Positions 2,789-56,297 of a stretch of 64,000 bases of DNA are shown piece by piece. How positions within the stretch are numbered: position 1 is the first letter of the stretch; each line of letters begins with the position of its first letter. Position numbers and translations under genes: made by a program. The DNA is from Candidatus Omnitrophota bacterium (GTDB taxonomy: Bacteria; Omnitrophota; Gorgyraeia; Gygaellales; Profunditerraquicolaceae), in assembly GCA_028717885.1 (NCBI GenBank), contig JAQUMX010000006.1, forward strand, positions 206 through 64,205. The letters run 5' to 3'. A model generated the notes under the pieces. That model was given only the letters and a program-made list of their open reading frames with translations, had not been told where the DNA came from and ran no database searches.

Positions 2789-3252
2789 TGGAAAAGAATT
2801 TAACTCTTTCCGAGAAAGCCAGGCAGTACGCTTTTTTACTTTTGAAATACCGGTTGCGCAGCGAATCAGAGCTGCGTTTTCGCCTAAAAAGAAAAAATTT
2901 TAGCCCCGGGATTATCGATTCCACAATCGAATTTTTAAAGGGAAAAGCTTTTCTCGACGATGAAGTTTTTGCCAAGGCATGGATATCTTCCCGTCTGCAA
3001 AAGCCTTTTGGTTTCAGGCGGCTGCGCCAGGAATTAAAGTTAAAGGGAGTAGGCAATAAGGTTATCGAAGCGCAAATCCAGCAGGCAAAAAAGGATTTTC
3101 CGGAAGAGGAAATTATTTTGTCGTTAGCTAAAGAAAAACTAAAAAAGTATAAGGGTGTTGAGCCGCAAAAAGCTAGGCAAAGAGTTTATGGTTTTCTTGT
3201 ACGCCGCGGATTTTGCGTAGAAAAAATTATCGAGGCAATGGAACAATTATGA
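2788..3252 (+). CDS. recX: RecX-like RecA regulator
   Basis: Helical-repeat protein (YAFLLLKYRLRSESELRFRL..., VYGFLVRRGF) in a recA neighbourhood; start uncertain: GTG 2788 overlaps the htrA stop, track ORF starts at 2740. Confidence 0.7.
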   Translation: MEKNLTLSEKARQYAFLLLKYRLRSESELRFRLKRKNFSPGIIDSTIEFLKGKAFLDDEVFAKAWISSRLQKPFGFRRLRQELKLKGVGNKVIEAQIQQAKKDFPEEEIILSLAKEKLKKYKGVEPQKARQRVYGFLVRRGFCVEKIIEAMEQL

Positions 3253-5822
3253 CCGCCGATGTATTAAGAGAAAAATTCCTGCAATTTTTCAAATCCAAAA
3301 AGCATAAAATCGTAGAAAGCGATTCACTGGTGCCTAAGGACGACCCGACTGTGCTCTTTACGCCTGCCGGGATGAACCAGTTTAAAAAGCAATTCTTAGG
3401 GCAAATTACGGGTTTTACCCGCGCTGCTACTTCGCAGCGCTGCCTACGCACGGATGACCTGGATAAAGTGGGAAAAACAACCGGCCACCACACATTCTTT
3501 GAAATGCTGGGGAATTTTTCTTTTGGCGATTATTTTAAGAAAGAGGCAATTACCTGGGCCTGGGAATTTTTAACCGGGGAATTGAAGATTAGCCCGGAAA
3601 AATTATGGGTTTCGGTTTATAAAGATGACGATGAGGCTTACGGAATCTGGAAGGATGAAGTTGGGGTTGCGCAGGAGAGGATCGTCAAATTAGGGGATAA
3701 GGATAATTTCTGGCCGGCAGAGGCGAAAGAAAAAGGCCCGAATGGGCCATGTGGGCCGTGCTCGGAAATTTTTTATGATTTCGGCAAGGATGTCGGTTGT
3801 AGAGAGAAAATTTGCGATCCATCTTGTAGCTGCGGCAGGTTTGTGGAGATCTGGAACCTGGTTTTTACCCAGTTTAACCGCAAAGAAGGCGGCCAATTAG
3901 AACCGCTGCCAAAGAAAAATATCGATACCGGTATGGGTTTGGAAAGGCTGGCTGCGGTAATGCAAGGGGCAAAAAACAATTTCGAGACGGAATTATTTCA
4001 GCCGATCATCAAAGCGATAGAGCAAGAGGCAAGCAGAAGTATTCAAGCGGCTAATGCTTACGCAGTGGCTGATCATTTACGCGCGATTTGTTTTTCAATA
4101 TATGATGGTGTAATACCGTCTAATGAAGAGCGGGGATATGTAATCAGAAAACTGATTCGTAAGAGTAGCCTACATATAAAAAGTATGGGGATTAAGAAAT
4201 TATTTCTTTATAAATTAGTTCCAATTTTGGCTGAAATTATGCAGAAGCCATATCCAGAATTAAAAGAGCGGCAGGAAAACATTGCGCAGATTATTTTAGA
4301 AGAAGAAAGAGCTTTTCTTGCGAACCTAGATAATAGTGAGCCCTTATTTGAATCTAAATTTCAGAATTTAAAAACCAATTCGGATCCGGATGCAGCAGGA
4401 AAAATTGCCTTTCAACTCTATGATACTTACGGGATTCCTGCAGAGCTTACTTTTGATTGGTTAAGTAAGCATAAAATCGAAGTCTCCAAAGATGCTTTTG
4501 AACGCGCAATGGACGAACAGAAGCAGCGCTCAAAAGCAGGCAGCGCCATGAAAGGCGATGTGTTCAGTTTAAAAGGCTTAAAGCTCGACGTAAAAGAAAC
4601 TAAATTTTTGGGCTACAAAACAACTCTATCTAAGGCAAAAATCTTAAAGATTTTTCAGGACGGTAAAGAAGTAAAAAAAATCAAGCAGGGGGATAGTGCG
4701 GAAATCGTGCTGGACCAGACTCCGTTTTATGCCGAATCCGGCGGCCAGGTTGCAGACATCGGAGAATTGGTAAAAGGAAAGAATATTTTTCAGGTCCTGG
4801 ACACGCAGAAAAACGGAAAAGTAACCATTCATCTGGGAAAAGTAACCAAAGGCGGGTTTAAAAAAGCCGATTCCTTAAACGCCCAAGTAGACAGAGAGCG
4901 CAGGCTCTCGATTGCCAGGAACCATACCGCCACACACCTTTTACAGGCGGCATTGCGTAAAGTTTTAGGGCCACACGTGCAGCAGCAGGGTTCTTTGGTA
5001 GCTGCGGAAAAACTGCGTTTTGATTTCACGCATTTTAAGGGCTTAAATCAGGAAGAGCTGGAGCGGATCGAAGAAGAAGTATACCAGTCTGTAATCGAAA
5101 ACTATTCCCTAAGTACGAAGATTTTAACCCTTGCTCAAGCAAAGAAGACAGGGGCTTTGGCATTTTTTGCGGAAAAATATGAAGGTAAAGTACGCGTAGT
5201 GTCTGTAGGGGAGGTTTCGCGAGAGCTTTGCGGCGGGACTCACCTTGCTGCCACGGGAAATATCGGGTTATTTAAGATCCTGCATGAAGGCTCAGTTGCC
5301 AGCGGCGTGCGCAGGATCGAGGCAGTTACCGGAAAATACGCTTATCAGCTCATAAAGGAAGAAAAAGAAAAACAGCAGGAGGAATTAGAAAAAGCATTTG
5401 GCCACCAGAGAGAGTTGGAAAAACAATTAGGCTCGCAAAAACTCGGGCAGGCAAAAAATTCCCTGAATGATTTGCTGGAGAAAATCGAGAATATTAATGG
5501 CTTAAAAGTAATCGCCCAGGTTTTGCCGGATTTAGATATGGGATTGCTGCGAAAAAGTGTGGATTTAATCAAGGAAAAATCGGATAATACTATCATTGCT
5601 TTAGGCTCTATTCAAAGCGCAAAAGCCTTATTAGTGGTGGCGGTAACTGCCGACCTTTGCGCTAAGGGGATCGATGCTACGAAAATAATCGTGGAAGCGG
5701 CAAAGCCAATCGGCGGAAGCGGCGGAGGGAGAAAAGATTTTGCCCAGGCAGGCGGCACGCAGCCGGAAAATTTCGAACAGGCTTTCGCAATAATTAAAAA
5801 AATAGCCAGCGAGGTAAAATGA
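3249..5822 (+). CDS. alaS: Alanine--tRNA ligase
   Basis: Class II AlaRS N-terminus (FTPAGMNQFK), editing-domain HTATHLL...CGGTH, C-terminal GGSGGGR; ATGA overlap with the recX stop (track start 3213 rejected). Confidence 0.96.
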   Translation: MTADVLREKFLQFFKSKKHKIVESDSLVPKDDPTVLFTPAGMNQFKKQFLGQITGFTRAATSQRCLRTDDLDKVGKTTGHHTFFEMLGNFSFGDYFKKEAITWAWEFLTGELKISPEKLWVSVYKDDDEAYGIWKDEVGVAQERIVKLGDKDNFWPAEAKEKGPNGPCGPCSEIFYDFGKDVGCREKICDPSCSCGRFVEIWNLVFTQFNRKEGGQLEPLPKKNIDTGMGLERLAAVMQGAKNNFETELFQPIIKAIEQEASRSIQAANAYAVADHLRAICFSIYDGVIPSNEERGYVIRKLIRKSSLHIKSMGIKKLFLYKLVPILAEIMQKPYPELKERQENIAQIILEEERAFLANLDNSEPLFESKFQNLKTNSDPDAAGKIAFQLYDTYGIPAELTFDWLSKHKIEVSKDAFERAMDEQKQRSKAGSAMKGDVFSLKGLKLDVKETKFLGYKTTLSKAKILKIFQDGKEVKKIKQGDSAEIVLDQTPFYAESGGQVADIGELVKGKNIFQVLDTQKNGKVTIHLGKVTKGGFKKADSLNAQVDRERRLSIARNHTATHLLQAALRKVLGPHVQQQGSLVAAEKLRFDFTHFKGLNQEELERIEEEVYQSVIENYSLSTKILTLAQAKKTGALAFFAEKYEGKVRVVSVGEVSRELCGGTHLAATGNIGLFKILHEGSVASGVRRIEAVTGKYAYQLIKEEKEKQQEELEKAFGHQRELEKQLGSQKLGQAKNSLNDLLEKIENINGLKVIAQVLPDLDMGLLRKSVDLIKEKSDNTIIALGSIQSAKALLVVAVTADLCAKGIDATKIIVEAAKPIGGSGGGRKDFAQAGGTQPENFEQAFAIIKKIASEVK

Positions 5823-7070: not shown

Positions 7071-7676
7071 ATGCGTAAAGCGCAGGTAGAAAGAAAAACC
7101 ACGGAAACAAACATAAAAATCGATCTCAATCTCGATGGCAGCGGAAAGGCTAAAATCGATACCGGAATCGGTTTCTTAGACCATATGTTGGAGCTTTTTA
7201 CTTTTCACGGGTTATTTGATTTAGATATTAGCGCCAAAGGCGATTTGAAAGTTGATATCCATCACACTAATGAAGATGTGGGCCTGGTTTTAGGGGAAGC
7301 ATTCCGTAAGGCCTTAGGGGATATGAAGGGAATTAAAAGGTTTGGTTCCGGCTCTGTGCCGATGGAAGACGTAGTCGCCCAAGTAACCGTTGATATTAGC
7401 GGCCGTTCGTTTTTTAAAGGAATAGAAAAAGAGCCTGCTGCAACAGAAGATGTAAAAGATGAGAGCGGATATTCTTTTAGTTACGCAAATCATTTCTTTG
7501 AAGGGTTGGTGAAAAAACTGGGTATGAATTTAAGCATTAAACTCTCCAGTAGGAATCCGGATTTGCACACGAACTTAGAGCCGGTATTTAAGGCCCTGGG
7601 TGTGGCTCTGGACCAGGCTACCCAAATCGATCCCCGCCGTAAAGGTGTTCCTTCTACAAAAGGGATAATTGACTAG
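7071..7676 (+). CDS. hisB: Imidazoleglycerol-phosphate dehydratase
   Basis: RKTTETNI, GIGFLDHML, HHTNED motifs. Confidence 0.95.
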   Translation: MRKAQVERKTTETNIKIDLNLDGSGKAKIDTGIGFLDHMLELFTFHGLFDLDISAKGDLKVDIHHTNEDVGLVLGEAFRKALGDMKGIKRFGSGSVPMEDVVAQVTVDISGRSFFKGIEKEPAATEDVKDESGYSFSYANHFFEGLVKKLGMNLSIKLSSRNPDLHTNLEPVFKALGVALDQATQIDPRRKGVPSTKGIID

Positions 7677-21196: not shown

Positions 21197-21225
21197 TAAA
21201 ACCGGAAGCGGCAAAGAAAAGAGAA

Positions 21226-21285
21226 TGACCCATTCGCAAAATTCGCTCAGGGTCATCCCGAGCGAATCAAAAGGACCGAGGGATG
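21226..21285 (+). repeat. Family-2 double-hairpin cassette (copy 1, ends in the secE start codon)
   Basis: TGACCC (21226-21231)/GGGTCA (21250-21255) and CATCCC (21254-21259)/GGGATG (21280-21285); ATG 21283 is the secE start. Confidence 0.65.
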
Positions 21286-21546
21286 AATTTTTTTACGAGT
21301 AATTTAAAAGCTATAATTTTAAGCGTCGTAGTAATCGGCATCGTTCTTTTGGTAGTTAAGAATTACAAGAAGATAAAGCAATTTTTAACCGAAGTGAAAC
21401 AGGAGCTGGAGAAGGTATCCTGGTCAACCCGGGAGGAATTAATCGGTTCAACTGTAGTAGTGATCACCATCACCGCAATCACTGCAGTATTCATCGGAAT
21501 AATCGATCTTTTTCTCTCCAAAATCTTGAGCGTAATGTTTAAGTGA
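21283..21546 (+). CDS. secE: Preprotein translocase subunit SecE (with an extra N-terminal TM)
   Basis: C-terminal half E.KKV.WP(S)..E pattern (ELEKVSWSTREEL) plus TM; position before nusG. Confidence 0.85.
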   Translation: MNFFTSNLKAIILSVVVIGIVLLVVKNYKKIKQFLTEVKQELEKVSWSTREELIGSTVVVITITAITAVFIGIIDLFLSKILSVMFK

Positions 21547-21692
21547 GGACACAAGTTATGGTGCATTATATTAAAAATAATATCAGCGACATAACTTGTA
21601 AGTCCGAACTTATCCTTGCACCAATTGGCGCAAGGATTAATTCGCATAGCAACTTATGTTCACTTACGTTCCATAAGTTGCGTGCTCATTAA
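21543..21692 (+). repeat. Family-1 structured intercistronic element (copy A, secE|nusG)
   Basis: GTGAGGACA...AAGTCCGAACTTATCC core; hairpins 21547-21605, 21612-21637, 21649-21681; embedded 44-codon frame 21558-21692. Confidence 0.75.
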
Positions 21693-22220
21693 ATGAAAAA
21701 CTGGTACGTCGTACATACACAAACCGGCGCGGAAGATAAAGTCAAAACGTTATTGGAAAGCAGGATTTCTGCCCAGGGTTTAGCCGAAACAATCTCGCAG
21801 GTAGTTATTCCCACCGAACAGGTTTCCGAAGTGCGTTCCGGGAAAAAACGTATCTCGCAAAGAAAGTTCTTCCCCGGCTATCTGATCGTAGAAATGGAAT
21901 TGAATGAGCAAACCTACCTTTTAATCAAGGGCACCCCGGGAGTAACCGGCTTTATCGGGTTAGGGAAAAAACCTTTAGCCTTACCGCAAACCGAAGTTGA
22001 TAATATTTTGAAGAGGACCGAAGAGACGCACGCTAAACCAAGCCCCAAAATCGTTTTTGAGAAGGGCGAACAGGTTAGGGTGACTGAAGGTCCTTTTGTT
22101 AATTTTAACGGCACTATCGAAGAAATCCATCCGGAAAAGGGTAAATTAAAGGTCAGTGTTTCCATTTTTGGCAGGTCAACGCCTGTTGAATTGGAATATT
22201 GGCAAGTTGAGAAGGTATAA
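21693..22220 (+). CDS. nusG: Transcription termination/antitermination factor NusG
   Basis: WYVVHT NGN start, FPGY(L/V).VEM, C-terminal KOW ([14 protein letters not shown]). Confidence 0.95.
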
Positions 22221-22645: not shown

Positions 22646-23322
22646 AGAAACCAAGCAAAAGATACCAGGAATCAATAAAGTTAGTTGACAAAGATAAGGC
22701 GTTTCAGCTTAAAGAAGCGGTTTCTATTTTAAAGACAATGAAGCCGACGAAATTCGATGAGTCTGTAGATTTGCATTTAAGTTTGAATGTAGACCCCAAA
22801 AAATCAGAACAGATGGTGCGCGGTACGGTAGTACTGCCGCACGGAACCGGCAAAAAGGTTCGGGTTGCGGTCTTCTGTAAAGGCGAGCATGAAAAACAGG
22901 CTAAGGATGCCCAGGCAGATTTCGTGGGCGGCCTGGAATTAATCGAAAAAGTAGGCGCAGGTTTCCTGGATTTTGACTGTGCAATTGCTACTCCGGAAAT
23001 GATGAAAGATTTAAGCAAGCTAGGTAAGGTCTTAGGGCCGCGCGGCCTTATGCCAAGCCCCAAGACTGGAACAGTTACCAATGACATTGTCAGGGCAATC
23101 GAAGACGTGCGCAAAGGAAAAGTAGAATTCCGCGTAGATAAGCAGGGCGGAATGCATTTAAGCGTAGGAAAAATTTCTTTCTCCGAGGACAAGATATTGG
23201 AAAATGCCTCAAGGGTAATCGAGGCAATTAACGAAGCCAAGCCCGCATCAGTAAAAGGAAAATTCGTGCGCAGCCTCTTTATTTCTACCACGATGAACCC
23301 GGGATTAAGGATTTCAACATGA
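22642..23322 (+). CDS. rplA: 50S ribosomal protein L1
   Basis: FDESVDL...L.VDP(K/R)K.(D/E)Q.VRG...LPHGTGK pattern. Confidence 0.96.
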
Positions 23323-23377
23323 CCCTTAAACAAACTGCTCGTGGGAATGGTGCGCGAGCAAAGCGAGTCGAACCATG
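23320..23377 (+). repeat. Family-2 cassette (copy 2, rplA stop to rplJ start)
   Basis: TGACCC...ATGGTGCGCGAGCAAAGCGAGTCGAACCATG; TGA is the rplA stop, terminal ATG is the rplJ start; 30/33 nt identical to 56265-56297. Confidence 0.7.
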
Positions 23378-35993: not shown

Positions 35994-36293
35994 ATGCAAA
36001 AGATTCGCATCAAACTAAAAGCCTATGACCATCGCCTGCTTGATCAGGCGGTAGCCGAGATCGTGGAAACTGTCCGGCGTACCGGAGCGAAAATTTCCGG
36101 GCCCGTACCGTTGCCCACGAAGCACGAGATTTATACGGTGCTGCGTTCGCCGGTAATCGATAAAAAATCCCGCGAGCAGTTCGAATTGGCGACACACAAG
36201 AGGCTGATTGATATTTTTGAACCTACATCCAAGACGATCGATTCCTTAAGGAAATTAAACCTTCCGGCAGGCGTGGATGTGGAAATTAAATGA
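35994..36293 (+). CDS. rpsJ: 30S ribosomal protein S10
   Basis: [16 protein letters not shown] start; ATG 35994 one nt after the tuf stop (track start 35985 rejected). Confidence 0.95.
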
Positions 36294-36401
36294 GGACATA
36301 ATTTATGGCGCGTAAGCGACATAAATTATAAGTCCGAATTTATCCCGCACAGCTTATATTAAAAGCTGTTGAGTGCGGGAATAACTTGCAAGGAAACTCA
36401 C
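36291..36401 (+). repeat. Family-1 structured intercistronic element (copy B, rpsJ|rplC)
   Basis: ATGAGGACATAATTTATGGCGCGTAAGCGACATAAATTATAAGTCCGAATTTATCCCG; hairpin 36294-36335 with GTAA tetraloop; second hairpin 36344-36379; mini-ORF 36305-36331. Confidence 0.75.
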
Positions 36402-37034
36402 ATGTTAGGTATTTTAGGAAAAAAACTAGGAATGACCCAGGTCTTTACGGAAAACGGAAGCCTTGTTTCCGTGACTGCCATCGAAGCCGGGCCATGCCCT
36501 ATATTAAAGGTAAATGAAAAGAGCCTGCAATTGGGTTTTGAGGCAATCGCAGAAAAGCATTTAAGTAAGCCGGTGCTTGGCTACTTTAAAAAACTGCAGC
36601 TTAATCCCTGCAAGGTGATTCACGAAGTGGTAAAGGACCCTTCCAAGGAATATAAGATTGGCGACCAGGTAAAGGTAGATATTTTTAAAGAAGGCGATTT
36701 CGTCGATGTGAGCGGAACTTCTATTGGTAAGGGTTTTCAGGGCGGGATGAAGCGTTGGCATTGGCATGGCGGGCCGCAAACCCATGGTTCGATGTCGCAC
36801 CGCAGGATTGGTTCTTTGGGGTCAAGTACCACCCCAGGCCGCACCTGGACCGGGCATCATTTACCCGGGCACTTGGGTAATACTCGGGTTACTACTCAGA
36901 ACCTGAAAATAATTAAAGTTGACCTGGAGAATAATATCCTCTTAGTCAAAGGTTCGGTACCGGGAAATAAAAATAATTATTTATTCATCAGGCAGGCGAA
37001 AAAGAAGAAGCCAAAGGCTGCTGCAACTAAATAA
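36402..37034 (+). CDS. rplC: 50S ribosomal protein L3
   Basis: MLGILGKKLGMTQVF is the canonical L3 N-terminus; AAGGAAA SD; track start 36369 lies inside the repeat element. Confidence 0.95.
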   Translation: MLGILGKKLGMTQVFTENGSLVSVTAIEAGPCPILKVNEKSLQLGFEAIAEKHLSKPVLGYFKKLQLNPCKVIHEVVKDPSKEYKIGDQVKVDIFKEGDFVDVSGTSIGKGFQGGMKRWHWHGGPQTHGSMSHRRIGSLGSSTTPGRTWTGHHLPGHLGNTRVTTQNLKIIKVDLENNILLVKGSVPGNKNNYLFIRQAKKKKPKAAATK

Positions 37035-43441: not shown

Positions 43442-43553
43442 GTGAGGACATAATTTATGGAGCGTAAGCGACATAAATTATAAGTCCGAACTTATCCCGA
43501 GTCCAAAGAGATTTTATAGTTGTAAACGAGGGATCTAAAAAGGTCATAGGAAT
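43442..43553 (+). repeat. Family-1 structured intercistronic element (copy C, rplF|rplR)
   Basis: GTGAGGACATAATTTATGGAGCGTAAGCGACATAAATTATAAGTCCGAACTTATCCCG; hairpin 43446-43487 with GTAA tetraloop; mini-ORF 43457-43483. Confidence 0.75.
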
Positions 43554-43916
43554 ATGAAAAACCATAAAGAACAATTAAGATTAAAGAGGCACAAAAGGAT
43601 TTTGATGAAGATTTTCGGCACAGCCGAGCGGCCGCGCTTGGTCATCCGCCGCAGTTTGCAGAATTTTCATGCGCAATTAATAGACGATACGAAACGTAAA
43701 TCCATAATTTCCCTTTCTACTCTTGATAAGCAGGTAAAGGCAAAAGCGCCTTCGGGCGGAAATAATAAGGCTGCAGTTGCCTTAGGAGAAGTTTTAGCCT
43801 TGCGTTTAAAAGAAAAAGGGGTTACCCAGGTTATTTTTGACCGGGCAGGGTATTTGTACCACGGCAGAGTCAAGTCTTTTGCCGATGCTTTAAGAAAGGG
43901 AGGCTTGAAGTTTTAA
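43554..43916 (+). CDS. rplR: 50S ribosomal protein L18
   Basis: RH.R(I)...(I).GT.ERPRL.V.RS..(N)..AQ(L)IDD start, FDR.GY.YHGR(V)K..A(D)A.R..GL.F end. Confidence 0.96.
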   Translation: MKNHKEQLRLKRHKRILMKIFGTAERPRLVIRRSLQNFHAQLIDDTKRKSIISLSTLDKQVKAKAPSGGNNKAAVALGEVLALRLKEKGVTQVIFDRAGYLYHGRVKSFADALRKGGLKF

Positions 43917-55160: not shown

Positions 55161-56240
55161 ATGCATAAAATAACTTTAATCCCCGGTGACGGGATCGGGC
55201 CGGAAGTAGCAGATGCAGCCAGAAGGTGTATCGACGCTACCGGAGTAAAAATCGAATGGGAAGAAGCAATTGCCGGGCAATTGGCTTTGGAAAAACAAGG
55301 AAGCCTTTTACCGGATAGCGTGATTGCTTCGATCAAAAAGAATAAAGTCGCGTTAAAGGGGCCGATTGTTACGCCTATCGGCACGGGTTTTCGCTCGGTG
55401 AATGTTGCTATTCGCCATGCTTTGGATTTATTTGCCTGCGTGCGCCCGGCAAAATCATACGCCGGTGTGCGAAGCAATTACCGCGATATTGATTTGGTGA
55501 TTGTGCGTGAGAACAGCGAAGATTTATACGCAGGGATTGAGTTTGAGGAAGGTAAGTCGGAAACGATAAATCTGATTGAGCAAATAGAAAAATACAGCAA
55601 AAAGAAAATTCGCCCGGATTCCGGGATTTCAATTAAGCCGATTTCCAAGACCGCTTCCGAGAGGATCGTGCGTTTTGCTTTTGAATATGCCTTAAAAAAT
55701 AACCGGAAAAAAGTTACTGCCATTCAAAAAGCAAATATCATGAAATTTACCGATGGCCTTTTCCTGAAAGTTGCCCGCGAAGTGGCAAAAGAATATGAAG
55801 GAAAGGTAGTTTTTGAAGAAGGCCTGGTAGATAATATGTCCATGCAGCTGGTGCAGAAGCCGCACAATTACGATGTGTTGGTATTGCCTAACCTTTACGG
55901 AGATATTCTTTCCGATCTTTGTGCCGGATTGATCGGAGGCTTAGGTATTGCTCCGGGCGCAAATATCGGAGAAGAGGCAGCGGTTTTTGAAGCGGTACAT
56001 GGATCTGCTCCCAAATATACCGGCCAGAATAAAGTTAATCCTACGGCAATGATTCTTTCCGGAGTGTTGATGCTGCGCCATATCAAAGAAGAAAAAGCCG
56101 CAGACAAATTAGAAGCGGCGGTAAAGGCAGTGTTAGCAGAAGGTAAATCCGTTACTTACGATTTAAAGCCTGACCGTAACGATCCTACCAGTGTAGGCAC
56201 ACGGGAAATGGCTGACGCAATCATTGCGAAACTAACATGA
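55161..56240 (+). CDS. Isocitrate/homoisocitrate dehydrogenase-like beta-decarboxylating dehydrogenase
   Basis: [15 protein letters not shown](I)R..LDL(F)A.VRP, (V)(I)VREN(S)EDLY(A)[10 protein letters not shown](L)..GL(I)GGLG blocks. Confidence 0.85.
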
Positions 56241-56297
56241 CCTTCCGCAAAACTTTGTTTAGGGTCATGGTGCGCGAGTGAAACGAGTCGAACCATG
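56238..56297 (+). repeat. Family-2 cassette (copy 3, ICDH-like stop to mdh start)
   Basis: TGACCT...AGGGTCATGGTGCGCGAGTGAAACGAGTCGAACCATG; CATGGT (56266-56271)/ACCATG (56292-56297). Confidence 0.7.

What the first reader, a model, noticed from the sequence alone, without database searches (positions are those of the whole stretch)
21543..21692. Family-1 copy A shows compensatory stem changes, and its ORF runs 44 codons to abut the SD-less nusG start
Relative to copies B and C, the 9-bp helix changes from TAATTTATG/CATAAATTA to CAAGTTATG/CATAACTTG. Two base pairs are swapped on both arms, while GGAC/GTCC and the A-vs-TAA internal loop are retained. This is the signature of selection on RNA structure. 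The GNRA cap is replaced by a 29-nt AT-rich insert. The ATG in the 5' arm (21558) now opens a 44-codon frame (MVHYIKNNISDITCKSELILAPIGARINSHSNLCSLTFHKLRAH). Its TAA (21690-21692) is immediately followed by the nusG ATG (21693). No GGAG-like SD precedes nusG, so a translational-coupling relay secE -> small ORF -> nusG is plausible. Two more perfect hairpins follow: ATCCTTGC/GCAAGGAT (21612-21637) and GCAACTTATG/CATAAGTTGC (21649-21681). The arms of the last hairpin differ from those of hairpin 1 at one position only. Mutually exclusive long-range pairings between the two hairpins, attenuator-like, are therefore possible.
Basis: partly seen in the sequence, partly recalled or inferred. Interest (0 to 1): 0.7.

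Follow-up and report, generated by a model that had tools for sequence, protein, structure and literature searches.

The report
Mobile palindromic repeat inserted before nusG
The structured 150-base spacer between secE and nusG is a very recent insertion of a small, non-coding mobile DNA repeat that is abundant in Omnitrophota and lands on TAA stop codons between genes. Its hairpins are real family features, but its 44-codon reading frame is not conserved.

Summary
The interpretation needs re-framing.

**What copy A is**
- Copy A (21543-21689, flanked by TAA on both sides) is not a locally evolved secE-nusG leader. It is a 147-bp insertion.
- The five closest relatives (NusG 98-85% identical) have no spacer: secE's stop overlaps or abuts nusG's ATG (ATGA in four, TAATG in one).
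- Deleting the element plus one TAA from the window recreates that junction.
- It belongs to a family of more than 150 copies in Omnitrophota genomes and metagenomes.

**Family features**
- About 21-23-nt terminal inverted repeats and two mirror-image hairpin modules.
- A variable central hairpin.
- Placement almost always directly after an upstream gene's stop codon, in sense orientation, and 2-18 nt before the next start.

**Claims tested**
- Stem covariation is abundant family-wide, so structure is selected. No strand bias points to RNA rather than DNA.
- The 29-nt "insert" is the commonest cap form. The GNRA cap of B and C is a minority short-cap form.
- The relay ORF is intact in only 15 of 89 full copies, and total length mod 3 is uniform. 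ATG becomes ACG, with compensation, in 4 of 19 unselected copies.

A facultative role for the relay ORF at nusG is not excluded. The mobilising enzyme is unknown.

The parts
21283..21546 (+). secE. Its last codon and stop (AAG TGA) now run into the element; the TGA at 21544-21546 is supplied by the element's first bases (G-TGA).
   Evidence: 87-aa ORF. SecE Pfam annotation on the orthologues. Junction comparison.
21540..21542 (+). Left TAA: the target trinucleotide, or the left copy of a 3-bp target duplication.
   Evidence: The left flank is T98/A96/A100 over 128 copies. The empty site in L130 carries a single TAA.
21543..21689 (+). Copy A body (GTGAGG...CTCAT), 147 bp: a non-autonomous palindromic mobile element.
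   Evidence: Absent from L130-L134. More than 150 family copies.
21690..21692 (+). Right TAA: the right copy of the target and the stop of the 44-codon frame. It directly abuts nusG's ATG.
21539..21561 (+). Left terminal inverted repeat. It contains TAA, G-TGA, GAGGA (SD-like) and the ATG at 21558.
   Evidence: I1 (23 nt, 78% complementary to 21671-21693). By eye, 16 of 21 positions match between the commonest left- and right-end sequences seen; this figure was not computed.
21671..21693 (+). Right terminal inverted repeat (CCATAAGTTGCGTGCTCATTAAA).
   Evidence: I1. Right-end base frequencies.
21540..21612 (+). Module 1 / hairpin 1: outer helix UAAGU/ACUUA, GA/GA tandem mismatch, GGAC/GUCC, a 10-bp helix with a 2-nt bulge, and a 29-nt AT-rich cap with its own small hairpin.
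   Evidence: Folds. Covariation.
21612..21637 (+). Central hairpin 2 (ATCCTTGC/GCAAGGAT). This is the variable, exchangeable module of the family.
   Evidence: I2. Different hairpin-2 sequences in other copies. L101 has modules 1 and 3 joined with no hairpin 2.
21638..21692 (+). Module 3 / hairpin 3 (UUAAU-UC-GCAU...GUGC-UC-AUUAA): an inverted copy of module 1.
   Evidence: The module-3 HMM hits module 1 on the opposite strand 55 times. Covariation.
21558..21692 (+). 44-codon frame (MVHYIK...KLRAH*). Not conserved across the family and probably not a gene.
   Evidence: No Pfam match.
21693..22220 (+). nusG. It has no SD, and its start overlaps or abuts the secE stop in relatives that lack the element.
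36291..36380 (+). Copy B (rpsJ|rplC): short-cap module 1 plus hairpin 2. The right module is degenerate, and AAGGA lies before the rplC ATG at 36402.
43442..43534 (+). Copy C (rplF|rplR): short-cap module 1 plus hairpin 2. The right module is degenerate, and AGGA lies before the rplR ATG at 43554.

Best explanation
Copy A is a recently inserted, non-autonomous, palindromic mobile DNA element, MITE-like or REPIN/BIME-like, from a large undescribed family in Omnitrophota.

**Architecture and insertion**
- The element has two mirror-image hairpin modules of about 70 nt. Their outer 21-23 nt form terminal inverted repeats, and they flank an exchangeable central hairpin.
- It inserted at the TAA in the ancestral junction ...TTTAA|ATGA..., where secE's TGA overlapped nusG's ATG. 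A TAA now sits on each side.
- Because the element begins G-TGA, secE keeps its Lys-stop ending.

- The stems are conserved by compensatory change across the family because pairing, in single-stranded DNA or RNA, is needed by the element. The most likely need is mobilisation; this step is inferred.
- The differences between A and B/C are therefore subfamily differences carried in from the source copies. They were not selected at this locus.
- The SD-like GAGGA and the ATG are parts of the helices. The 44-codon frame is a by-product that most copies have lost.
- nusG lacks an SD because it depended on termination-reinitiation coupling with secE. How it is translated across 150 nt now is not shown.
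For: **Insertion at this locus**
- L134 (NusG 98% identical), L130 (93%), L131 (89%), L132 (88%) and L133 (85%) have secE and nusG overlapping or abutting, with no spacer.
- L130 reads gagtgtaatctttaaATGaaaaattgg. The window minus 21543-21692 reads gagcgtaatgtttaaATGaaaaactgg.
- The flanks are nearly identical to those of L134.

**Family**
- 9 loci in 7 Omnitrophota MAGs (two of the seven are labelled Planctomycetia in their records).
- 153 module-1 and 213 module-3 HMM hits in 0.89 Mb.
- Contexts are unrelated: ribosomal-protein operons, groESL, rpoBC, his, fts, tad and others.

**Ends**
- The 23-nt terminal inverted repeat.
- Left flank TAA in 96-100% of copies; right end CTCATT[A/T]AA.

**Placement**
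- The upstream flank codes on the same strand in 77 copies, against 1 on the opposite strand.
- The upstream stop is the flanking TAA in 67 copies and the element's own TGA in 17, of 91.
- A downstream ATG follows within 2-18 nt.

**Recurrent and recent mobility**
- Independent insertions at secE|nusG occur in L039, L060 and L100. Their NusG is only about 79% identical for L039 and L060 (not measured for L100), while closer relatives are empty.
- The window's own rpsS|rplV junction (acaTAAaaaaATG) is empty, whereas L005, L035, L097 and L103 are filled.

**Structure**
- Covariation.
- The same fold is obtained with DNA parameters, z = -7.7.

**ORF not conserved**
-.
- ATG to ACG with CAT to CGT compensation in 4 of 19 copies that were not selected by the search word.
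- GGAC/GTCC is replaced by GGCC/GGCC, GCGC/GCGC, GCAC/GTGC and others, which destroys the SD-like GAGGA.
Against: - No autonomous partner (a transposase gene between matching ends) was found in 0.89 Mb. Mobility is therefore inferred from insertion polymorphism only.
- The apparent 3-bp duplication cannot be told apart from insertion next to a fixed TAA by an element that itself ends in TAA. A few copies have non-matching flanks (L025, TGA left and TAA right; L096).
- Stem covariation is unusual for sites bound as duplex DNA by DDE transposases.
- The frame from the left-end ATG is the only one ever open to the right end: 20 copies, against 0 and 0 in the other two frames.
- Intact relays exceed a module-shuffling null (15 observed, 6.9 +/- 2.3 expected, P = 0.0015), although the copies are not independent.
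- Placement at stop codons (74%) exceeds a crude expectation of about 27% from TAA/TTA counts in the non-coding parts of the window. Some selection or targeting beyond a TAA preference is therefore likely.
Confidence: 0.8

Rival explanations
1. Translational relay. The element is tolerated at SD-less, translationally coupled junctions because ribosomes that terminate at the upstream stop re-initiate at the element's own SD and ATG. They then translate through the hairpins, terminate on the terminal TAA and re-initiate at the adjacent start. In copy A this would be what keeps nusG expressed.
For: - The geometry in copy A is ideal: secE's TGA overlaps GAGGA, the ATG lies 8 nt after it, and the TAA abuts nusG's ATG.
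- nusG has no SD of its own, and its start overlaps or abuts the secE stop in all five relatives.
- 3 of 4 independent secE|nusG insertions keep a frame that ends on the terminal TAA: window 44 codons, L039 45 codons, L100 11 codons.
- Only frame 0 is ever open to the right end (20, 0 and 0 of 89), and intact relays exceed the module-shuffle null.
- Intact relays are somewhat commoner at SD-less junctions (26% against 11%).
- The decayed copies B and C have SD-like motifs before rplC and rplR, as expected if hosts later evolve their own SD.
Against: - 74 of 89 full copies lack the relay.
- 24 of 43 SD-less abutting junctions have an early stop.
- Total length mod 3 is uniform.
- L060 at the same junction is broken and has no SD.
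- The ATG and GAGGA are lost with compensating stem changes in unselected copies.
- The enrichment tests are non-significant or are confounded by shared ancestry.
- About half of the genes in the window lack a strict SD anyway (35 of 68 have one).
Confidence: 0.22
2. An exapted RNA element. The transcribed hairpins act on the operon mRNA, for example as RNase III or RNase E processing sites, as 3'-end stabilisers of the upstream cistron, or as a brake on termination at the stop codon at the foot of hairpin 1. That benefit would explain the sense-only placement at stop codons.
For: - Strict sense orientation and placement at stop codons, above a crude neutral expectation.
- Very stable folds.
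- The conserved GA/GA tandem mismatch and the bulge are typical protein-recognition features.
- From memory, REP, ERIC and Correia elements are known to influence mRNA stability and processing.
Against: - The insertion is absent from the closest relatives, so no host function is needed at this locus.
- There is no sense-strand signal: G-U use is equal on both strands and the antisense fold is slightly more stable.
- Orientation follows automatically if the target is the asymmetric triplet TAA and short spacers contain little besides the stop codon.
- No terminator-like or promoter-like site was found.
- No Rfam family matches.
Confidence: 0.12
3. A locally evolved cis-regulatory leader or attenuator of nusG, or a real 44-residue protein gene.
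For: - Alternative pairings between hairpins 1 and 3 exist (I1 and I6).
- The ORF has an SD-like motif and an ATG.
Against: - The spacer is missing in five relatives.
- The same sequence sits in dozens of unrelated operons.
- The peptides have no Pfam match and are not conserved in frame or length.
- No Rfam match.
Confidence: 0.03
4. Rival for the mobility step only. The family is a REPIN-type system moved by a single-copy REP-associated tyrosine (HUH) transposase that acts on single-stranded hairpins, rather than a TIR-type MITE moved by a DDE transposase.
For: - Two mirror-image hairpin units form a doublet, with a minimal doublet lacking a central module in L101.
- Stems are maintained by covariation with conserved mismatches.
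- No internal transposase gene.
- RAYT genes (NF047646, 85.5 bits) are common and syntenic in Omnitrophota.
Against: - The RAYT lineage examined is flanked by a different repeat (GGGACACTTCTCCGATTGG...). The module-1 and module-3 HMMs find nothing in the RAYT flanks at E <= 10; the only hits, two module-3 matches in L135, lie about 1.7 kb upstream.
- The units lack the GTAG or CGTC tag that defines REP super-families (PMC3733652) and are about 70 nt long rather than 20-40.
- The TAA on both sides looks like a target duplication, which HUH transposition does not make.
Confidence: 0.25

Closest known systems
REPINs / BIMEs (REP doublets forming hairpins; bacterial interspersed mosaic elements) of Proteobacteria (PMC3116915, PMC3733652)
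   Same: - Short, non-coding, highly repeated palindromic units.
- Units paired in inverted orientation with a spacer, and mosaic combinations of modules.
- Located downstream of coding regions between co-directional genes, and plausibly transcribed.
- Stems kept by compensatory change.
   Different: - Units are about 70 nt rather than 20-40 nt, and there is no GTAG or CGTC tag.
- TAA lies on both sides.
- The left end sits exactly on the upstream stop codon and the right end a few bases from the next start.
- The one RAYT lineage checked in these bacteria is flanked by another repeat.
Bacterial MITEs that sit inside operons, such as Correia/NEMIS of Neisseria and ERIC/IRU of enterobacteria (from memory)
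   Same: - 100-200-bp elements with terminal inverted repeats and no transposase.
- AT-rich short target.
- Co-transcribed with flanking genes and folding into long hairpins.
- Presence/absence polymorphism between strains.
   Different: - The target here is TAA rather than TA.
- The architecture is three hairpins with a swappable centre.
- Orientation is almost exclusively sense and the position is on the stop codon.
- The left end carries stop, SD-like and ATG motifs.
Tourist-type MITEs / PIF-Harbinger and IS5-family (IS1031-group) elements with 3-bp TNA/TAA duplications (from memory)
   Same: A 3-bp TAA on both sides of a small element with terminal inverted repeats.
   Different: - No related transposase was identified here.
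- The ends carry self-complementary hairpins that covary, which is not a described feature of those families.
Translational coupling by termination-reinitiation at ATGA/TAATG overlaps (reviewed in PMC12548453)
   Same: The empty secE|nusG site is a classic 4-nt overlap with no SD. The element's ORF could in principle act as an intermediate cistron.
   Different: The intermediate ORF is not conserved among copies. No natural 'relay cistron' carried by a mobile element is known to me.

Membership tests
MITE (non-autonomous TIR transposon) | Small size (under about 500 bp) and no coding capacity | tested here: met
   Copy A is 147 bp and copies range from 80 to 330 nt. No long internal ORF. The peptides have no Pfam match.
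MITE (non-autonomous TIR transposon) | Terminal inverted repeats | tested here: met
   A 23-nt repeat, 78% complementary, in copy A (I1). The ends are conserved across copies.
MITE (non-autonomous TIR transposon) | Target-site duplication shown by comparing filled and empty sites | tested here: inconclusive
   The empty site has one TAA and the filled site has TAA on both sides. Because the triplet is invariant, the right TAA could belong to the element. L025 and L096 have non-matching flanks.
MITE (non-autonomous TIR transposon) | Many dispersed copies, with insertion polymorphism between close relatives | tested here: met
   Absent in L130-L134.
MITE (non-autonomous TIR transposon) | A cognate autonomous element with the same ends that encodes a transposase | tested here: not met
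   None among 129 copies or among end pairs 350-3500 bp apart in 0.89 Mb. Whole genomes could not be searched.
REP / REPIN-RAYT system | A 20-40-bp palindromic unit with an unpaired GTAG or CGTC tag (PMC3733652) | tested here: not met
   Units are about 70 nt and begin TAAGTGAGGAC. No GTAG or CGTC tag at either end.
REP / REPIN-RAYT system | [quoted passage not shown] | tested here: met
   Module 3 is an inverted copy of module 1: 55 opposite-strand HMM hits. L101 has a doublet without a central module.
REP / REPIN-RAYT system | A RAYT gene flanked by the same repeat | tested here: not met
   The RAYT in L104 and L135-L140 (NF047646, 85.5 bits) is flanked by GGGACAC...-type repeats. There are no module-1 or module-3 hits in its flanks. 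Only one RAYT lineage was examined.
IS200/IS605-derived palindrome-associated elements | Subterminal hairpins, no terminal inverted repeats, no duplication, insertion 3' of a fixed short sequence in one orientation | tested here: inconclusive
   Consistent: hairpins at both ends, a fixed TAA on the left and one orientation relative to TAA. Against: the two ends are mirror images, not direct copies.
Conserved leader or relay ORF (translational coupling cistron) | Start, frame and stop position conserved among homologous copies | tested here: not met
   15 of 89 intact; length mod 3 is 36/27/26. ATG lost in 4 of 19 unselected copies. L060 is broken at the same junction.
Cis-regulatory structured RNA of the secE-nusG / ribosomal-protein operons | Present at the orthologous position in related genomes, or matches a curated RNA family | tested here: not met
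   The five closest relatives have no spacer. Rfam at gathering threshold and at E <= 10 gives only tRNAs and hairpin noise.

The most novel reading that the evidence does not exclude
The family is a transposon lineage specialised for living inside operons.
- It targets the TAA stop codon of the upstream gene.
- It brings its own stops in two frames (TAA, G-TGA), an SD and an ATG.
- When newly inserted, it also brings an open frame that ends on a TAA next to the downstream start. Translational coupling of essential genes such as secE-nusG would then survive the insertion.
- Hosts would later evolve their own SD while the relay decays, as in copies B and C.

This would be a mobile 'coupling adaptor', a strategy not described for bacterial repeats.
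Probability: 0.2. Interest if true: 0.7.

Novelty: new member of a known kind. Interest (0 to 1): 0.45.

Why it matters
**For annotation**
- These spacers in Omnitrophota ribosomal-protein, rpoBC, groESL and sec operons are mobile repeats. They are not riboswitch-like leaders or small genes, and the covariation in them should not be read as evidence for a local regulatory RNA.

**For mobile-DNA biology**
- This is an abundant, recently active, undescribed repeat family in a poorly studied phylum.
- It has an unusual, nearly exclusive placement on stop codons of co-directional genes, and its mobilising enzyme is unknown.

**For translation**
- It provides natural experiments. Classic 4-nt overlap junctions of essential genes are suddenly separated by 150-250 nt of stable hairpins, yet the genomes persist.
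- How the downstream gene is then initiated can be tested directly with reporters.

Tried and rejected
1. **Rfam** at gathering and permissive thresholds gave only two tRNAs and miRNA-type hairpin noise.
2. **Promoter and terminator scan** of 21200-21800 found none.
3. **Pfam** on three element peptides found nothing meaningful.
4. **Autonomous element.** No copy has an internal gene. The two 'long' left-right end pairs are neighbouring elements or span a tRNA and a host gene.
5. **RAYT link.** tblastn with recalled IS200 and RAYT sequences found a genuine RAYT in L104. It is single-copy and syntenic in several Omnitrophota genomes. Its flanks carry a different repeat, so the link is rejected for this lineage.
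6. **Strand test for RNA-level selection** (G-U against A-C, and sense against antisense minimum free energy) showed no sense bias. The test is weak here, because each element contains the unit in both orientations.
7. **Association of an intact relay ORF with SD-less junctions** was not significant.
8. **K-turn reading** of the GA/GA mismatch plus the 3-nt loop was rejected by inspection. The tandem G-A pairs are separated from the bulge by a 4-bp helix.
9. **Literature searches** for Omnitrophota repeats, or for MITEs at stop codons or coupling junctions, found no description.
10. **Not done:** whether B and C are also absent from close relatives.
Full report
**1. Context and check of the observation**

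The window comes from a Candidatus Omnitrophica/Omnitrophota MAG; its NusG is 100% identical to P0001. The region reads tRNA-Thr, rpmG, tRNA-Trp, secE (21283-21546), a 146-nt gap, nusG (21693-22220), rplK, rplA, rplJ, rplL, rpoB, rpoC and so on.

- The perfect 10-bp hairpin 21551-21560/21590-21599 has a 29-nt cap. The hairpins at 21612-21637 and 21649-21681 are also present.
- The ATG at 21558 opens 44 codons that end at TAA 21690-21692, next to nusG's ATG.
- There is no SD-like motif before nusG.
- Copies B (36291-36346, between rpsJ and rplC) and C (43442-43498, between rplF and rplR) carry TAATTTATG/CATAAATTA with a GCGTAAGC cap.

The folds are far more stable than shuffles, with z = -9.1, -6.5 and -5.2. 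They also reveal an outer helix UAAGU/ACUUA and a GA/GA tandem mismatch reaching down to the upstream stop codon. That helix covaries in copy B (AAAU/AUUU).

**2. What it is: a dispersed repeat family**

A 25-nt internal pattern found 9 loci in 7 Omnitrophota MAGs.

After removing duplicates there are 129 copies, 93 of them with a recognisable right end.

The architecture, from left to right, is:
- a flanking TAA;
- GTGAGGAC-ATAAGTTATGG, a cap, then CGACATAACTTAT-NN-GTCC-GA-ACTTA (module 1);
- a variable central hairpin, with several recurring sequence types (absent in L101);
- TTAAT-TC-GCAC-...ATAACTTACG, a loop, then CGTAAGTTAT-GTGC-TC-AT (module 3);
- a flanking TAA.

Module 3 is an inverted copy of module 1: the module-3 HMM hits known module 1 sequences on the opposite strand 55 times. 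The outer 21-23 nt therefore form terminal inverted repeats. In copy A these are 23 nt and 78% complementary (I1).

No copy contains a gene.

**3. Copy A is a very recent insertion**

NusG homologues were used to fetch the same region from relatives.
- In L134 (NusG 98% identical), L130 (93%), L131 (89%) and L132 (88%), secE and nusG overlap by 4 nt (ATGA). In L133 (85%) they abut as TAATG.
- L130 reads ...gagtgtaatctttaaATGaaaaattgg. The window with 21543-21692 removed reads ...gagcgtaatgtttaaATGaaaaactgg.
- The flanks of L134 are almost identical to the window's.

So 147 bp plus a second TAA were added to an ancestral ATGA coupling junction. Because the element starts G-TGA, secE still ends Lys-stop.

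Elements also sit at secE|nusG in L039, L060 and L100 (a minimal single-hairpin form). NusG in L039 and L060 is only about 79% identical to the window's and to each other (L100 was not measured), and their central hairpins differ. With the closer relatives empty, these are independent hits at the same site.

Conversely, the window's own rpsS|rplV junction (acaTAAaaaaATG) is empty, whereas four other genomes have an element there.

**4. Placement**

- The left flank is TAA in 96-100% of 128 copies. The right end is CTCATT[A 67% / T 26% / G 6%]AA.
- The upstream 240 nt code on the element's strand in 77 copies, against 1 on the opposite strand.
- The upstream gene's stop is the flanking TAA in 67 copies and the element's own TGA in 17, of 91.
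- A co-directional gene starts 2-18 nt after the right end. About 43 copies abut an ATG with no SD, and 37 have GGAGG-type SDs between element and start.
- A crude count in this window gives 41 TAA stop codons among 150 non-coding TAA or TTA triplets, which predicts about 27% at stop codons. About 74% is observed.

Part of this excess follows from the asymmetric target: a sense-strand TAA fixes the orientation. Part follows from very short spacers. Some additional selection or targeting is likely. The 19-mer search word may also favour well-preserved copies.

**5. Structure is selected, but not demonstrably as RNA**

Hairpin 1 over 142 unique module-1 copies:
- Double-sided changes occur at seven pair positions, for example T-A 137 / C-G 5, G-C 124 / C-G 11 / T-A 2, and A-T 125 / C-G 5 / G-C 2. 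There are very few mispairs.
- The GA/AG tandem mismatch is kept in at least 132 of 142 copies.
- The 5' 'bulge' A pairs with a T, and the remaining 2-nt bulge is free to vary.

Copies not selected by the search word show GGAC/GTCC replaced by GGCC/GGCC, GCGC/GCGC, GCAC/GTGC, GGTC/GACC, AGCC/GGCT and CGAC/GTCG.

The hairpin 3 core covaries even more, with T-A 40 / C-G 38 at one position.

Copy A's helix is within one pair of the family consensus (ATAAGTTATG/CATAACTTAT), and B and C are the more derived subfamily. Because the insertion is recent, these differences arose in source copies, not at this locus.

A strand test gives no sign of sense-RNA selection.
- G-U pairs make up 4.5% of pairs in both sense and antisense folds.
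- The antisense strand is slightly more stable: its fold is the lower-energy one in 55 of 89 copies.
- Core mismatches are 4 G-T against 7 A-C.

This test is weak, because each element carries the unit in both orientations. DNA parameters give the same fold.

**6. The cap**

Cap length peaks at 26 nt (40 copies) and 29 nt (37 copies). The '29-nt insert' is therefore the commonest state, not a replacement of a GNRA cap.

**7. The 44-codon frame**

In 89 full-length copies:
- The frame from the left-end ATG reaches the terminal CAT-TAA in 15, or 17%.
- The first stop falls in module 1 in 21 copies, in hairpin 2 in 26, and in the linker or hairpin 3 in 22. Five read through.
- Total length mod 3 is 36/27/26, so length is unconstrained.

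Points in favour of some constraint:
- Frames 1 and 2 are never open to the end, against 20 copies for frame 0.
- Shuffling modules among copies gives 6.9 +/- 2.3 intact frames against 15 observed (P = 0.0015). However, copies at orthologous junctions are not independent.
- Module-1 length keeps the DITYKSEL frame in 65 of 89 copies, largely through two major length classes.

Points against a required relay:
- Among SD-less abutting junctions, 11 of 43 have an intact relay and 24 of 43 have an early stop. Among SD-containing junctions, 4 of 37 are intact (Fisher p = 0.15).
- L060 at the same secE|nusG junction stops at codon 33 and has no SD.
- In 4 of 19 unselected copies the ATG is ACG, with CAT changed to CGT on the partner arm. 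The SD-like GAGGA changes whenever its helix partner changes.
- The peptides match no Pfam family.

The ORF is therefore not a conserved feature.

It is still noteworthy that three of four independent secE|nusG insertions (window, L039, and L100 with 11 codons) end on the terminal TAA. nusG also lacks an SD in four of the five empty-site relatives (L132 has an AGGA just upstream of its ATG). I keep a facultative relay at roughly 0.2.

**8. Mobilisation is unknown**

No transposase lies between matching ends.

A REP-associated tyrosine transposase (NF047646 at 85.5 bits, above its cut-off of 80; Pfam Y1_Tnp) lies 1.7 kb from an element in L104. It is single-copy and syntenic, between a sigma-factor-like gene and the H+-pyrophosphatase gene, in most of the other loci fetched (L135, L136, L139, L140; in L138 two further genes intervene before the pyrophosphatase, and L137 has a different context). 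Its flanks carry a different repeat (GGGACACTTCTCCGATTGG...) and no module-1 or module-3 hits.

Evidence pointing each way:
- Terminal inverted repeats and TAA on both sides favour a TIR-type MITE.
- Hairpins kept by covariation, a doublet architecture and a mosaic centre recall REPIN/BIME elements (PMC3116915, PMC3733652).
- The units lack the GTAG or CGTC tag and are longer than REPs.

I therefore file the element as a new family of small non-autonomous palindromic mobile DNA, without assigning it to either mechanism.

**9. Verdict**

- structure selection: yes;
- a locus-specific regulatory RNA: no;
- a relay ORF: not conserved, possibly facultative.

The finding is best described as a recent insertion of an undescribed Omnitrophota repeat into a translational-coupling junction. 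It is of moderate interest, mainly for mobile-DNA biology and as a natural test of how coupling survives such insertions.

Noticed in passing
window 23310-23374 and 56228-56294: A second short intercistronic repeat. It runs from AACATGACC at the upstream stop to ATGGTGCGCGAG(C/T)(A/G)AA(G/A)CGAGTCGAACC directly before the ATG of rplJ (23375) and of the ORF at 56295. The two copies are 83% identical over about 75 nt, and the 22-mer occurs twice against 0 expected. Like Family 1, it fills the whole stop-to-start spacer.
   Followed up: partly
L104 3546-4073 (- strand); L135, L136 and L138-L140 at 3001-3483: A single-copy REP-associated tyrosine transposase gene (NF047646, 85.5 bits). In most of these Omnitrophota contigs it lies between a sigma-70-like gene and the H+-pyrophosphatase gene. 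It is flanked on both sides by its own inverted repeats of the type GGGACACTTCTCCGATTGG...AAGAAACGGTCC. This is a separate REP/RAYT-like system. That repeat is absent from the window.
   Followed up: partly
L121 39-60 and L091 7690-7712: The element's left end alone (TAAGTGAGGACATAAGTTATGG) serves as stop, SD and ATG of a real gene: rpsR in L121, and a membrane protein starting MELQFLL in L091. No other part of the element follows.
   Followed up: no
L027 about 1640-1870 and L011 1166-1313: Nested insertion of another small palindrome (CCCGAATGAAGTT...CATTCGGGAT) inside the 3' arm of hairpin 1, at TTAT|AAG. Central hairpin 2 modules are likewise bounded by AT...AT. The mosaic centre may therefore itself come from insertions of other mini-palindromes.
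   Followed up: no
L011, L111, L117, L064, L060 (between hairpin 2 and hairpin 3): An extra recurring module of about 60 nt (TCGTCCTTCGCTTCGCTCTAGGACTCGATTGGACGATCCTGAAACGAAGTGAAGGATCTCGC) is present in a subset of elements.
   Followed up: no
L100 (element sites near 7205-7247 and 7624-7667, - strand): Minimal single-hairpin elements, with the left end joined directly to the right end (about 65 nt). One lies between secE and nusG, and one is followed by a sequence resembling the start of tRNA-Trp in the window, suggesting an rpmG|tRNA-Trp position. In the secE|nusG copy an 11-codon frame still ends on the terminal TAA.
   Followed up: partly
window 36381-36401 and 43535-43553: Downstream of copies B and C the right-hand module is degenerate (remnants ATAACTT...CTCA in B, GGTCAT in C). 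SD-like AAGGA and AGGA motifs precede rplC and rplR.
   Followed up: no
L133 12260-12320: A relative with an empty secE|nusG site carries a partial element (hairpin 2 plus module 3, followed by GGAGG) between rplJ and rplL. The window has only a 1-nt spacer at that junction.
   Followed up: no
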